Of a stretch of 64,000 bases of DNA, positions 52,257 through 54,863 are shown in pieces. A program made the position numbers and the translations under genes. The DNA is from Thermoanaerobaculia bacterium (GTDB lineage: Bacteria; Acidobacteriota; Thermoanaerobaculia; Multivoradales; Multivoraceae), in assembly GCA_963666565.1 (NCBI GenBank), contig OY762911.1:672001-736000 (forward strand). The letters are read 5' to 3'. Each line of letters starts with the position of its first letter. Position 1 is the stretch's first letter. The notes beneath the pieces are model-generated. The model was not told the DNA's origin. It worked only from the letters and a program-made list of their open reading frames with translations, and did no database searches.

Positions 52257-52529
52257 GGTAGTCACGGCTTGCCCCGGATCGCCAGGGAGGACACCGGCAG
52301 GAGCCGGCAGGAAGCGAAGAGCGTATCGCAGCGGAGTCTCGGGGCACTGCACCACGACCCAAACGAGGAAGACTGGAGGCCGATTCCAACGAGCCGAAGC
52401 GACGACCGACCGGAAGGACGAGATCGTGAGCATGCGGCCGGCGACCGGAGTGCGGGTCAGAAGACCCGCGCACCCAGTGGCGGCCGGAGTGCGGGTCAGA
52501 AGACCCGCGCATGTATGGTCCGCCCCGCT

Positions 52530-52760
52530 TGTGCAAGGGCACTTTCCGGAGTTCCGGCGAGAGAGGTGTCGTTGCTTGCATGTATTCGGCCTGTTGTTGG
52601 GCGTCTCGTGGTTTCGAGCTCCCTGGCCCCGATGGAATACGCGCGCGTCGTCTCTTCTGTACACCCAGACGGCCTGTTGAATGGCCCTGCGCGGGTTCAG
52701 GCTCTCGACGCGCCGGTCCGACCTGTTTCGCCATCGCTCCGTTGTGTCCTCGCAACGACT
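52530..52760 (-). ncRNA. Putative bridge/seek RNA of the IS1111 element
   Basis: Non-coding end downstream of the transposase. Contains ACCCGCGCA (52696-52688) and CTGGGTG (52668-52662) matching the target halves, and ATTCCATC / ATACATG matching the donor junction. Boundaries approximate. Confidence 0.78.
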
Positions 52761-52808
52761 TGGTGGGGCAATCCTCCTTGGTTGATTCGATGTGGATCGA
52801 GCCGCCTG

Positions 52809-53867
52809 CTACGCGGCCCGAGAGACCTTCTGCCGAGACCCGGCGAGGCGGTCGTCGCGGTACAGCTCGCCGCGGCGAAGCACCGCCCAGGCGATGCGGC
52901 CCAGCTTGTTGGCCAGTGCCACCGTGGCGACGTTCGGCCCCCGGCGCCGCTTGACGTCGAGCGCCCAGCCCTTCAGCCGCGTTCGCTCGCCCTTCGCCGC
53001 CGTGCGCAGGACCGCCCGCGCACCGTGGATCAGGAGCGAGCGCAGGTAACGGTCGCCGCGCTTGCTGATCCCGCGCAGCACCGTGCGACCCCCGGTCGAG
53101 TCCTGACGCGGCACCAAGCCCATCCAGGCCGACATCTGACGACCGCTGCTGAAAGCCCAGCCGTTGCCCACCGCCGCCACGATCGCCGTCGCCACGATCG
53201 GACCGATGCCCGGAATCGACATCAGACGCTGGCAGTGAGGGTTCTCCTTCGACTCCCGCACCAGCATCGCGGTCAGGTCCTCGACCTCCTTGTGGACCTG
53301 CATCAGAGCCTCGTACTGCATCCACAGCAGCGCGCGAAACTGACCCGGCAGCTCGCGCTCCGCGTCGCTCGCGATGTCGGGCACCGCCCGCATGACCACC
53401 GCCCGGCCCTGACGCAGCACGATCCCGTACTCGCCCAGGAATCCCCGCAACTGGTTCACCAACTGCGTGCGACGGCGAAGCGCCGCCTCCCGGCTCCGAT
53501 GAACCTGCTGAAGAGCACGCTGCTCCTTCGTCTTGTACGGCACGAAACGCATCGTCGGACGGGACACCGCCTCGCAGATCGCCTCCGCGTCGTGGTAGTC
53601 GCTCTTGTTCGACTTCACGTAAGGCCGCACGAACTGAGGACTCATCATCCGCGCGTCGTGACCCAGAGCGCTCAGCTTCTCCACCCAGTAGTGCGCGCCG
53701 CAGCTCGCCTCCATGCCCACCAGGCACGGCTCGAGCTGCACCATCAACTCCATCAGCCCCGACGCCTTCACCTGACGCTGAAACACCACCGCGCCCGACG
53801 AGTCCATCGCGCACACCTGGAACAGGCGCTTGCCCAGATCGATACCGACTCGAGTAACCTTCTTCAT
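52809..53867 (-). CDS. IS110-family recombinase/transposase
   Basis: DEDD RuvC-like motifs GIDLGK, MEAS, KSDYHDA; SIPGIG; GLVPRQDSTGG; ALANK. Confidence 0.96.
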   Translation of the reverse strand: MKKVTRVGIDLGKRLFQVCAMDSSGAVVFQRQVKASGLMELMVQLEPCLVGMEASCGAHYWVEKLSALGHDARMMSPQFVRPYVKSNKSDYHDAEAICEAVSRPTMRFVPYKTKEQRALQQVHRSREAALRRRTQLVNQLRGFLGEYGIVLRQGRAVVMRAVPDIASDAERELPGQFRALLWMQYEALMQVHKEVEDLTAMLVRESKENPHCQRLMSIPGIGPIVATAIVAAVGNGWAFSSGRQMSAWMGLVPRQDSTGGRTVLRGISKRGDRYLRSLLIHGARAVLRTAAKGERTRLKGWALDVKRRRGPNVATVALANKLGRIAWAVLRRGELYRDDRLAGSRQKVSRAA

Positions 53868-54179
53868 GGTCCGTCTCCTCCCTTGTTGGTTGGGAAAAAC
53901 CCATTCTGGCCCTACAAGAGGCCGTAGAGGGCGGGGCGGACCATCCCATTACCCAGAGGCGACCGGAGTGCGGGTCGGAAGACCCGCGCACCCAGTGGCG
54001 GCCGGAGTGCGGGTCGGAAGACCCGCGCACCCAGTGGCGGCCGGAGTGCGGGTCGGAAGACCCGCGCACCCAGTGAATCGAAGAAATCGCCCCGAATTCC
54101 GTCTTAGTCCTCAGAAGGTCGAGATTACCCGCCCGTTCCGGCGGACGACTCGTGCCCACACGAACGAAGGAGAACGGAA

Positions 54180-54863
54180 GTGACGGAAGCGAACGTGGAG
54201 CTACACTACCGGCATGGGGATCCCTGCCGGACACTGGAAGAAGCCGGCTTCGGGCACGGACAGGCCCGGGCGCTGGTCGACTTCATCGCCAGCCGCGAGA
54301 CCAGGTTGGTGACCGACGAAGACATGACCGCCTACGAGAAGGACGTTGCCGTCCTGAGAGGCGACTTGGCCATCCTGAAGGACGACGTCGCGGTCCTCAA
54401 GGTCGACGTCGCGGTCCTCAAGGTCGACGTCGCGGTCCTCAAGGTCGACGTCGCGGTCCTCAAGGAGGATGTCGCGGTCCTCAAGGAGGATGTCGCCGAC
54501 CTCAAGGTGAGGATGGCGGCGGTCGAAGGGCGCATCGACGGCCTCGTCATGGTCGTCGAGGGTCTCCGGCAGGAGGTCAGGGAGAGGGTCGAGGGTCTCC
54601 GGCAGGAGGTCAGGGAAAGGGTCGACGCGCTCAGGCTTGAGTTGACGGCCAAGTTCGAGGCCCTGGAGGCACGCGTCGACCGCCGCATCGGCGGCCTGGA
54701 GGCGCGGATGGACGGCCGGATGGCCAGCCTCGAGGGCAAGATGGACGGCGTTCAGGGCGAGCTCAGGACGGTCAAGTGGGTGCTCGGCTTGATTGCCGGC
54801 CTTCTGGTGGCCGTTGGCGTGCCGACCGCGGCCGCGCTGGTCCGGCTCGCCTTCTTCGCGTAG
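54180..54863 (+). CDS. DUF1640/CCDC90-like coiled-coil membrane protein with heptad repeats
   Basis: LEEAGF..QARALV head, DVAVLK(V/E) 21-bp tandem repeats, C-terminal TM. Confidence 0.8.
   Translation: MTEANVELHYRHGDPCRTLEEAGFGHGQARALVDFIASRETRLVTDEDMTAYEKDVAVLRGDLAILKDDVAVLKVDVAVLKVDVAVLKVDVAVLKEDVAVLKEDVADLKVRMAAVEGRIDGLVMVVEGLRQEVRERVEGLRQEVRERVDALRLELTAKFEALEARVDRRIGGLEARMDGRMASLEGKMDGVQGELRTVKWVLGLIAGLLVAVGVPTAAALVRLAFFA

What the first reader, a model, noticed from the sequence alone, without database searches (positions are those of the whole stretch)
52512..53950. IS1111-type recombinase whose non-coding end encodes guides matching the host REP it is inserted in (candidate bridge RNA)
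Seen: the element splits a REP unit, GACCCGCGCA|element|CCCAG. The ~300-nt non-coding end downstream of the transposase reads on the minus strand ...CTGA-ACCCGCGCA-G-GGCC-ATTCAACA-GGCC-GT-CTGGGTG-TACAG.... ACCCGCGCA (52696-52688) equals the left target half plus the CA core. CTGGGTG (52668-52662) is the reverse complement of core plus right half (CACCCAG). A GGCC hairpin separates them. A second region has ATTCCATC (52638-52631; imperfect match to donor ATCCCATT) and ATACATG (52585-52579; complement of CATGTAT). Known: IS110/IS1111 recombinases use a bridge/seek RNA with target- and donor-binding loops in this left-guide/right-guide layout, located downstream of the transposase in IS1111. Inference: this is a natural RNA-guided recombinase programmed for a repeat with about 40 copies in this window alone, with target ACCCGCG-CA-CCCAG.
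Basis: partly seen in the sequence, partly recalled or inferred. Interest (0 to 1): 0.92.

Follow-up and report, generated by a model that had tools for sequence, protein, structure and literature searches.

The report
RNA-guided IS1111 element aimed at REP
This is an ordinary but well-preserved jumping gene of the IS110/IS1111 kind whose own non-coding tail carries short guide sequences that match the host repeat it inserts into, as already shown by experiment for relatives such as ISPa11 and ISEc11.

Summary
Window 52512-53950 is a 1439-bp IS1111-group element: a 352-aa DEDD transposase on the minus strand, 14-bp subterminal inverted repeats and a 297-nt non-coding end downstream. The genome has five identical copies, all at CTGGG-TG-CGCGGGT of a REP.

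In transposase sense the tail reads ACCCGCGCA, a GGCC hairpin, then CUGGGUG. The first segment pairs with the top strand and the second equals it. They overlap on TG, in the order published for IS1111 seekRNAs.

Guide and target covary in relatives. In 40 full-length copies, 18 with ACCCGCGCA sit at TGCGCGGGT and 21 with GUCGGCGCA sit at TGCGCCGRC. One has a single mismatch. Three plasmid relatives at about 49% protein identity keep the same fold with unrelated guides that match their own flanks.

There is no RNA or activity evidence. REP-targeting RNA-guided IS110/IS1111 elements are already known (IS621, ISPa11, ISPpu10). This is a new member of a known kind, with modest interest.

The parts
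52512..53950 (-). IS1111-group insertion sequence, 1439 bp (1440 bp, to 53951, if the base shared by both junctions is given to the left end as the family convention does)
   Evidence: Five copies 100% identical over 1-1439 in the genome. Relatives align end to end.
52809..53867 (-). Transposase gene, 352 aa. Motifs GIDLGK (D10), GMEAS (E53), KSDYHDAEAI (D90, D93) and GLVPRQDSTG (T258-G259).
   Evidence: Pfam DEDD_Tnp_IS110 4.1e-20 and Transposase_20 7.6e-24. NCBIfam NF033542 'IS110 family RNA-guided transposase', 341 bits against a cut-off of 140. Motif positions; their catalytic role is recalled, not tested.
53868..53950 (-). Left end, 83 nt non-coding. It starts AATGGG and then the subterminal inverted repeat.
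53931..53944 (-). Left subterminal inverted repeat ATGGTCCGCCCCGC
   Evidence: Read: a perfect 14-bp complement of 52515-52528.
52515..52528 (-). Right subterminal inverted repeat GCGGGGCGGACCAT, followed by the 3-bp extension ACA (52512-52514)
52512..52808 (-). Right end, 297-nt non-coding region that holds the candidate seek/bridge RNA
   Evidence: Relatives differ by indels of 1-2 nt, so the region is not coding.
52640..52716 (-). Target-binding module, 77 nt: outer stem GGCGCGUCG/CGACGCGC, a CUG/CAG stem, a loop with the two guides, and the GGCC hairpin
   Evidence: Constrained and free folds. The same layout appears in four lineages with different stem letters.
52688..52696 (-). 5' target guide ACCCGCGCA. 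It pairs with the top strand TG+CGCGGGT, which is the right flank in transposase sense.
   Evidence: It covaries with the flank in relatives.
52671..52686 (-). Hairpin GGCC-AUUCAACA-GGCC between the guides
   Evidence: The stem is invariant and the loop varies in 10 distinct relatives.
52662..52669 (-). 3' target guide (U)CUGGGUG. It equals the top strand (T)CTGGG+TG of the left flank, so it pairs with the bottom strand.
52579..52628 (-). Second module: GGCC/GGCC helix, inner hairpin, then GA and the guide AUACAUG (52585-52579)
   Evidence: The helix changes to GGAC/GUCC and GGCU/AGCC in plasmid relatives (read).
52579..52585 (-). 3' donor-side guide AUACAUG. It equals the last 5 nt of the element plus the first 2 nt of the right flank.
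   Evidence: The matching segment is found in 4 of 4 lineages: ATACATG, ATATACG, ATGCATG, ATGTATG.
52631..52638 (-). More likely the 3' strand of an RNA helix with CGAUGG near 52732-52737.
   Evidence: RNAalifold pairs CGAUGG with CCAUCG. The outer pair is C-G here and U-A in two plasmid relatives. The segment does not follow left-end position 6, which is G, G, A, T.
52503..52511 (+). REP half left of the element on the + strand, ACCCGCGCA. It is part of the REP palindrome 52491-52508 plus GCA.
53951..53956 (+). REP remainder ACCCAG right of the element on the + strand. The first A is the base shared by both junctions.
52531..52536 (-). -35-like TTGCAC. Together with CA + shared T + AAT of the left end it would form a promoter only in the circular form.
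   Evidence: Own scan of the junction built by script from the window: TGCACA-16-CATAAT 9 of 12, or TTGCAC-17-CATAAT 8 of 12. Nothing was found at the integrated left junction. The like is seen in three plasmid relatives. This is a consensus match only.

Best explanation
This is an IS1111-group member of the IS110 family.

Shown: its DEDD transposase is encoded on the minus strand, and every copy sits at one position and in one orientation of the REP.

Inferred mechanism: the 297-nt region downstream of the stop codon is transcribed with the gene. By analogy with relatives, transcription starts from a promoter that forms only when the excised element is a circle. The transcript is then processed into a seek/bridge RNA.

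In a 77-nt stem-loop the RNA presents two guides in one internal loop around a GGCC hairpin. [quoted passage not shown] The two overlap on the dinucleotide at the crossover.

A second module presents AUACAUG, which reads the right end of the element. How the left end is read is not settled. It may be by protein at the subterminal inverted repeat, or by an RNA segment that I could not identify.
For: Family. Pfam DEDD_Tnp_IS110 and Transposase_20 both match. NCBIfam NF033542 scores 341 bits. There are C-terminal matches to the solved ISCro4 and IS621 recombinases at 1.3e-9 and 2e-9. The sTIR is 14 bp, with extensions of 6 (7 with the shared base) and 3 bp, and the long non-coding region lies downstream. 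These are the features listed for IS1111 in PMC11187229 (sections read).

Site fidelity. 5 of 5 copies in this genome lie at the same REP position. So do all 40 full-length copies in hand: 39 have CTGGGT on the left and one has ATGGGT.

Guides. The 9-mer and 7-mer appeared together, in order, in 1 of 50,000 shuffles. Their order, top-strand match 5' of bottom-strand match and overlapping in the target, is the one published for IS1111.

Covariation in the close clade (n=40).
- 18 copies with ACCCGCGCA lie at TGCGCGGGT, 9 of 9 pairs.
- 21 copies with GUCGGCGCA lie at TGCGCCGGC (14, with one G.U) or TGCGCCGAC (7).
- 1 copy with GCCGCCGCA lies at TGCGCCGGC, 8 of 9 pairs.
- Three further copies with GCCCGCGCA lie at TGCGCGGGC, TGCGCGGGT and TGCGCGGAC.

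Choice between site types. Genomes that hold both site types still show only cognate insertions.
- G000: 5 of 5 copies, with 526 GGGT-type against 52 CCGRC-type free sites.
- G069: 5 of 5 copies, with 69 against 40.
- G121: 6 of 6 copies, with 52 against 21.
- G025, with the other guide, has 0 against 413.

Distant lineages. Plasmid relatives at about 49% identity have unrelated targets. Pandoraea has exact guides GUACACCA and CGAAUCUG. Massilia has ACGCAACA and UGGCUUUG. Mesorhizobium has GGGGCCG for the bottom strand. The right-end guide matches in 4 of 4 lineages.

Fold. The same fold with different stem letters appears in 4 of 4 lineages, and the first guide starts at nt 41 after a GAUGG anchor in all four.

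Recency. The five copies are identical and there are no partial copies.
Against: - No RNA evidence. No Rfam family matched at E up to 10, and I do not know whether Rfam 15 holds a family for these RNAs.
- No sigma-70-like promoter in the integrated copy. The junction promoter is a consensus match on a junction that I inferred.
- Within the close clade no base pair shows a change on both sides: 0 of 31 pairs, and shuffles do as well. Support for the fold therefore rests on the four divergent lineages.
- In the free minimum-energy fold the two target guides partly pair with each other. Holding them open costs 7.9 kcal/mol.
- The whole 297-nt end folds no better than shuffles, z = -1.54.
- Imperfect cases. 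One copy has 8 of 9 guide pairs. One of three G061 copies has a C.A mismatch. One site has ATGGGT. The Mesorhizobium 5' guide has no exact match; by eye it makes 8 of 10 pairs. One G025 copy abuts a truncated copy instead of a REP.
- The donor's second crossover base (A) does not match what the guide segments encode (G), in 4 of 4 lineages.
Confidence: 0.88

Rival explanations
1. The matching segments act as DNA or are REP-derived debris. On this view the element picked up REP pieces, or its protein reads the REP directly, and no guide RNA is involved.
For: No RNA was seen. REPs are abundant, 812 palindromes in the genome, so capture of fragments is conceivable. The two guides resemble the REP's own quasi-palindrome.
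Against: The two segments lie in opposite senses and are split by a hairpin, unlike any REP piece. The same layout with unrelated guide letters is found in elements whose targets are not this REP. The family is shown by experiment to use such RNAs (PMC11187229, sections read; PMC11208160, passages read).
Confidence: 0.04
2. The guide RNA is real, but the element here is a silent relic that no longer moves.
For: There are only 5 copies against 526 free exact sites. No promoter-like site is found in the integrated form.
Against: The five copies are 100% identical over 1439 bp, lie in different flanks, and have intact reading frames. There are no decayed copies. Low copy number with a promoter that forms only in the circle is the usual state of this family (passages read).
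Confidence: 0.07
3. The matches are chance.
For: The sequence is G+C-rich. The 9-mer alone turns up in 247 of 50,000 shuffles.
Against: Both guides in order appear in 1 of 50,000 shuffles. The covariation also argues against chance.
Confidence: 0.01

Closest known systems
ISPa11 (IS1111 group, Pseudomonas aeruginosa)
   Same: It targets a REP. It has a downstream non-coding region that gives a seekRNA which co-purifies with the transposase. The top-strand match lies 5' of the bottom-strand match (PMC11187229, passages read).
   Different: The host phylum, the REP and the guide letters are all different. I had no ISPa11 sequence, so protein identity and RNA similarity were not measured.
ISEc11 / ISXne4 (IS1111 group)
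   Same: The pair is a natural redirection by replacement of the target-matching bases while the stems stay the same. An 82-nt short form is sufficient. Flanks are needed for circle formation. The extensions are 7 bp on the left and 3 bp on the right.
   Different: Here the redirection is small, 1-4 bases of the 5' guide, and follows REP variants of sister species rather than an unrelated site.
IS621 (IS110 group, E. coli)
   Same: It targets a REP and has a DEDD recombinase. Its bridge RNA has two guides per loop that overlap on a core dinucleotide (passage read). The solved structure 8wt6 matches the C-terminal half at 2e-9.
   Different: [quoted passage not shown] Here it lies downstream and the order is reversed. 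IS621 has only 2-3-bp inverted repeats. Its core CT is shared by donor and target, whereas here only one base is shared.
ISPpu10 and ISPpu9 (IS110 group, Pseudomonas putida)
   Same: Both insert in REPs (abstracts read). ISPpu10 needs the target's DNA hairpin as well as RNA matching. Here too the 5' guide covers one arm of the REP hairpin.
   Different: Both belong to the IS110 group with upstream RNA. A hairpin requirement was not tested here.
Unnamed IS110-family elements on Pandoraea, Massilia, Mesorhizobium and Aeromonas plasmids
   Same: About 49% protein identity over 94-97% of the length. The left end starts the same way, AATGG.ATGG. The architecture of the non-coding end is the same, and so is the junction promoter.
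   Different: Their targets and guides are different. They are annotated only as 'IS110 family transposase'.

Membership tests
IS110 family (DEDD transposase) | N-terminal DEDD/RuvC-like domain plus C-terminal Transposase_20 domain | tested here: met
   PF01548 at 4.1e-20 (residues 7-147) and PF02371 at 7.6e-24 (residues 212-290). NF033542 at 341 bits against a cut-off of 140.
IS110 family (DEDD transposase) | Catalytic D, E, D, D and the S/T-G of the G-L-x-P-x4-S/T-G motif | tested here: inconclusive
   Motifs are present at D10, E53, D90, D93 and GLVPRQDSTG 250-259. The motif form is quoted in PMC11187229. Assigning the four acidic residues rests on recall; no structural alignment was made.
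IS1111 group | Subterminal inverted repeats, usually 11-13 bp, with asymmetric extensions of 7 (or 6) bp on the left and 3 bp on the right | tested here: met
   The sTIR is a perfect 14-bp repeat. The left extension is AATGGG, or TAATGGG with the shared base. The right extension is ACA. The criteria were read.
IS1111 group | Long non-coding region downstream of the transposase gene | tested here: met
   83 nt upstream against 297 nt downstream. The criterion was read.
IS1111 group | Transposase falls in the IS1111 clade of a tree with named reference elements | not testable with these tools
   ISfinder reference sequences were not on hand. The length of 352 aa is close to the quoted range of 330-350 aa.
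IS1111 group | Site- and orientation-specific insertion without target duplication | tested here: met
   40 of 40 full-length copies lie at one position and orientation of a REP-type site. Only one base is ambiguous between the junctions.
seekRNA / bridge RNA | [quoted passage not shown] | tested here: met
   ACCCGCGCA (top strand) lies 18 nt 5' of UCUGGGUG (bottom strand), and they overlap on TG. The published order was read.
seekRNA / bridge RNA | Guides change with the target across relatives | tested here: met
seekRNA / bridge RNA | Guides lie in an internal loop bounded by conserved helices | tested here: met
   With the guides held open, the same outer stem, small stem and hairpin appear in 4 of 4 lineages with different letters. 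Within the close clade no pair changes on both sides. In the free fold the guides partly pair with each other.
seekRNA / bridge RNA | Donor-binding segments for both ends of the element | tested here: inconclusive
   The right-end segment is supported in 4 of 4 lineages. No left-end segment was identified, and AUUCCAUC does not covary.
seekRNA / bridge RNA | An RNA of this region exists and binds the transposase | not testable with these tools
   No RNA run was listed. Only contigs of DNA-type runs could be laid.
seekRNA / bridge RNA | Match to a curated covariance model | tested here: not met
   No Rfam 15 family matched with E up to 10 beyond chance-level hits. I do not know whether Rfam holds such a family. 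The models of PMC11208160 were not available.

The most novel reading that the evidence does not exclude
In this IS1111 subclade, which includes the acidobacterial element and its plasmid relatives, donor and target share only one base at the crossover (T or C). Both target guides and the right-end guide are written for the target's dinucleotide, TG or CG. The donor's second base is an invariant A, which completes the -10 box of the circle-junction promoter.

The right-end guide matches the element's last 5 nt plus the first 2-4 nt of the flank. That is the integrated right junction rather than the circle junction. The second module could therefore be an excision guide, or the built-in mismatch could set the direction of the reaction. 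Either would be a departure from the shared-core rule of IS621.
Probability: 0.2. Interest if true: 0.5.

Novelty: new member of a known kind. Interest (0 to 1): 0.3.

Why it matters
It adds an acidobacterial (Thermoanaerobaculia) member to the RNA-guided IS1111 elements. It also gives a small natural retargeting series. Elements 83-86% identical in DNA carry 5' guides ACCCGCGCA, GCCCGCGCA, GUCGGCGCA and GCCG(C/G)CGCA, and each sits in the REP variant that its host genome offers. Such a series is a ready-made test set for how many distal mismatches or G.U pairs this group tolerates.

It also shows a repeat family with 526 free perfect sites that carries only five copies, so copy number is held down by something other than target supply. 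None of this changes what is known about the mechanism.

Tried and rejected
Rfam scan of 52300-54200 at E up to 10 gave only chance-level hits.

Covariation within the close clade gave no compensatory pairs, because the sequences are too alike.

Sequencing runs. No RNA holder was listed. Laying contigs of four runs gave only short-sided joints (22-30 nt) between REP units, which the tandem repeats explain. It gave no circle junction and no clear empty site. Element depth was about 4-5 times that of the unique flank, as expected for five copies.

Promoter and terminator scan of the integrated copy found 0 promoter-like sites, and one terminator-like site on the + strand inside the gene, with 0.5 expected.

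A second, distant IS1111-type clade in the same class has 35-42% protein identity and sTIR GGACTCCTCC/GGAGGAGTCC. I fetched and oriented its copies but could not fix their ends or targets, and dropped it.

Rows left out. Of the 55 loci in hand (5 own and 50), 40 aligned end to end and were counted. 15 partial or distant loci were left out: L034-L036, L040, L044, L046-L055. L065 (broken right end, guide GCCGGCGCA) and L063 (truncated right end, one stop codon) were looked at separately.

The Aeromonas plasmid copy has a truncated right end and gave no guide test.

I searched by eye and by script for a left-end donor guide. G.U-tolerant matches are too common to mean anything: there were three of 8-9 nt.

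Supplements of PMC11208160 and PMC11187229, with their lists of elements, RNA models and extra figures, were not seen. They may already hold relatives of this element. ISfinder could not be consulted. In print, no paper held 'Thermoanaerobaculia' with 'IS110', or 'Acidobacteriota' with 'bridge RNA'.
Full report
What is there.

The stretch 52512-53950 holds one long minus-strand reading frame, 53867 to 52809, of 352 aa. It matches Pfam DEDD_Tnp_IS110 and Transposase_20. It also matches the NCBIfam equivalog NF033542, 'IS110 family RNA-guided transposase', at 341 bits against a cut-off of 140. Its C-terminal half matches the solved ISCro4 and IS621 recombinases at about 1e-9.

In transposase sense the element has 83 non-coding bases before the gene and 297 after it. 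It begins AATGGG-ATGGTCCGCCCCGC and ends GCGGGGCGGACCAT-ACA. That is a perfect 14-bp subterminal inverted repeat with extensions of 6 and 3 bp. One base (T) stands at both junctions. Giving it to the left end makes the extension 7 bp. Extensions of 7 (or 6) and 3 bp and a long downstream non-coding region are the published marks of the IS1111 group (PMC11187229, sections and passages read; PMC11208160, passages read).

Copies and site.

The genome is one contig of 4.79 Mb and holds five copies that are 100% identical over all 1439 bp. It holds no partial copy of any part. All five sit at CTGGGT | element | TGCGCGGGT in transposase sense, and one has ATGGGT. This is the tail of a REP, GCGGGTC-N4-GACCCGC-GCACCCAG on the + strand. 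The genome has 812 such palindromes and 526 free exact 14-mer sites. The window has 38 palindromes and 26 exact sites. The copy in the window sits in a tandem run of REP units, and the neighbouring units at 52464, 53982, 54021 and 54060 are free.

The guides.

In transposase sense the non-coding end reads CUGA-ACCCGCGCA-G-GGCC-AUUCAACA-GGCC-GU-CUGGGUG-UACAG. ACCCGCGCA is the complement of the top strand TG-CGCGGGT. (U)CUGGGUG equals the top strand (T)CTGGG-TG. The two overlap on TG at the insertion point.

A top-strand match 5' of a bottom-strand match, overlapping in the target, is the order reported for IS1111 seekRNAs. [quoted passage not shown] In 50,000 dinucleotide-preserving shuffles both segments appeared in this order within 60 nt once.

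A 77-nt piece, 52716-52640, folds into an outer 10-pair stem, a CUG/CAG stem, a large loop with the guides, and the GGCC hairpin. In the free fold the two guides partly pair with each other, because the REP is itself nearly palindromic. Holding them open costs 7.9 kcal/mol.

Covariation in close relatives.

A scan of one genome per species gave 50 loci, mostly in Thermoanaerobaculia / 'Candidatus Multivorans' genomes at 76-82% protein identity. In a sample of the class, relatives at this level were confined to the window's own genus: 10 of 31 genomes of that genus matched at E up to 1e-40.

Of 55 loci in hand, 40 align end to end and fall into 11 distinct sequences. Stems are invariant. Hairpin loops and the 5' guide vary.
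- 18 copies with ACCCGCGCA all lie at TGCGCGGGT.
- 21 copies with GUCGGCGCA lie at TGCGCCGGC (14, with one G.U) or TGCGCCGAC (7).
- One copy with GCCGCCGCA lies at TGCGCCGGC with one mismatch.
- Three copies from another genome carry GCCCGCGCA and lie at TGCGCGGGC, TGCGCGGGT and TGCGCGGAC.

Free sites of the two types were counted in five genomes. They number 526 against 52 in this genome, 69 against 40 in G069, 52 against 21 in G121, 12 against 46 in G061, and 0 against 413 in G025. Where both types are on offer the element used only the type its guide matches: 5 of 5, 5 of 5 and 6 of 6. By my own arithmetic from those counts, blind choice in the three genomes would give this about 8 times in 1000. 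Copies in one genome may not be independent events.

Covariation in distant relatives.

A protein search of plasmids found full-length relatives at about 49% identity. I fetched four. Three are complete and share the left-end start AATGG.ATGG, the layout of the non-coding end and the conserved blocks. Their targets are unrelated, and their guides match their own flanks.
- Pandoraea: GUACACCA and CGAAUCUG for TCGAATC-TG-GTGTAC.
- Massilia: ACGCAACA and UGGCUUUG for TGGCTT-TG-TTGCGT.
- Mesorhizobium: GGGGCCG for the bottom strand. The top-strand guide has no exact match; by eye it makes 8 of 10 pairs.

With the guides held open, all four lineages fold into the same outer stem, small stem, loop and hairpin with different letters. 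The first guide starts at nt 41 after a GAUGG anchor in each. This is the structural support that the close clade could not give: there, 0 of 31 pairs change on both sides.

The second module.

After the first module comes a GGCC/GGCC helix around an inner hairpin, then GA and AUACAUG. The helix reads GGAC/GUCC and GGCU/AGCC in the plasmid relatives (read).

AUACAUG equals the last five bases of the element plus the first two of the right flank. The corresponding segment is AUAUACG, AUGCAUG and AUGUAUG where the ends are ATATA|CG, ATGCA|TG and ATGTA|TG, so it matches in 4 of 4 lineages.

It stays nearly the same while left-end position 6 is G, G, A and T. RNAalifold pairs it with an upstream CGAUGG. 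The outer pair of that helix is C-G here and U-A in Pandoraea and Massilia. I found no convincing left-end guide. PMC11208160 notes that in many IS1111 members the donor-binding bases lie in a multi-loop. PMC11187229 found an 82-nt short form sufficient for ISEc11.

Circle and promoter (inferred).

Joining the ends through the shared base gives TGCACA-16-CATAAT (9 of 12) or TTGCAC-17-CATAAT (8 of 12). Nothing of the kind is seen at the integrated left junction. The three plasmid relatives give TTGCAA-16-TACAAT, TTGGCA-17-CATAAT and CTGGCA-18-TATAAT. A promoter that forms in the circle is described for this family (passages read).

An oddity.

In all four lineages donor and target share only one base. 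The target's next base is G and the element's is A, yet the guide segments are written for G. The A is position 4 of the inferred -10 box. I could not tell what this means for the reaction. It is the basis of the novel reading.

What is known.

IS621, ISPa11, ISPpu9 and ISPpu10 all insert into REPs. Guide RNAs have been shown by experiment for IS621, ISPa11, ISEc11 and others. A natural redirection, ISEc11 to ISXne4, is in print. The element here is a new member of that kind, from a phylum for which my two searches found no paper.

What is shown here is sequence anatomy, site fidelity and covariation. That an RNA is made, binds the protein and steers insertion is inferred.

Verdict.

Novelty: new member of a known kind. 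Interest 0.3.

Noticed in passing
window 52441-52511 and 53951-54075; genome-wide: REP units often stand in head-to-tail runs. The commonest spacings between exact 14-mer sites on one strand are 28, 36 and 27 nt (69 spacings under 80 nt on the + strand). One 200-kb bin (600-800 kb) holds 104 of the 526 sites, and three of the five element copies lie at 724-805 kb.
   Followed up: partly
L062 2854-3758 (G025): One copy of the related element ends not in a REP but directly against position 535 of a second, truncated copy. This could be a rearrangement or an off-site event.
   Followed up: no
L065 about 2300-2330; L063 about 2780: Two decayed relatives. In one the right inverted repeat runs into an inverted REP piece, and its guide GCCGGCGCA is a perfect match for TGCGCCGGC. 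In the other the non-coding end is cut off after the second GGCC and there is a stop codon in the gene.
   Followed up: partly
L066-L096 (genomes G080, G176, G193 and others): A second IS1111-type clade in the same class has 35-42% protein identity, inverted repeats GGACTCCTCC/GGAGGAGTCC and a right extension AGATA. It sits in its own conserved sites. One locus (L093) has two right ends in tandem.
   Followed up: partly
window 52750-52775 (minus strand), RE positions about 34-59: A block GGAGGAUUGCCCCACCAAG just after the stop codon is nearly invariant in the close clade and is recognisable (UGCCCCAC...AGUUGCG) in the Aeromonas plasmid copy. Its role is unknown.
   Followed up: no
window 52675-52682 (minus strand): The loop of the hairpin between the target guides reads CCAUU here and CCCAU in most relatives. 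These are complementary to left-end bases 1-5 and 2-6 (AATGG, ATGGG). This could be chance or a contact with the donor.
   Followed up: no
window 54180-54863 (+): A 227-aa reading frame has a run of 7-residue repeats (DVAVLKV/E) and then longer repeats. It looks like a coiled-coil protein with a C-terminal membrane segment.
   Followed up: no
run X5 laid on 52502-53956: A contig from a marine metagenome run carries a variant of the element with 20 differences and one 1-nt deletion in about 1455 nt. Only one difference (52552) lies in the non-coding end.
   Followed up: no
L097 (Aeromonas salmonicida plasmid) 1415-2640: A relative at 49% identity sits between type III secretion genes. Its non-coding end is cut short about 130 nt after the stop codon, so it probably lacks a complete guide RNA.
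   Followed up: partly
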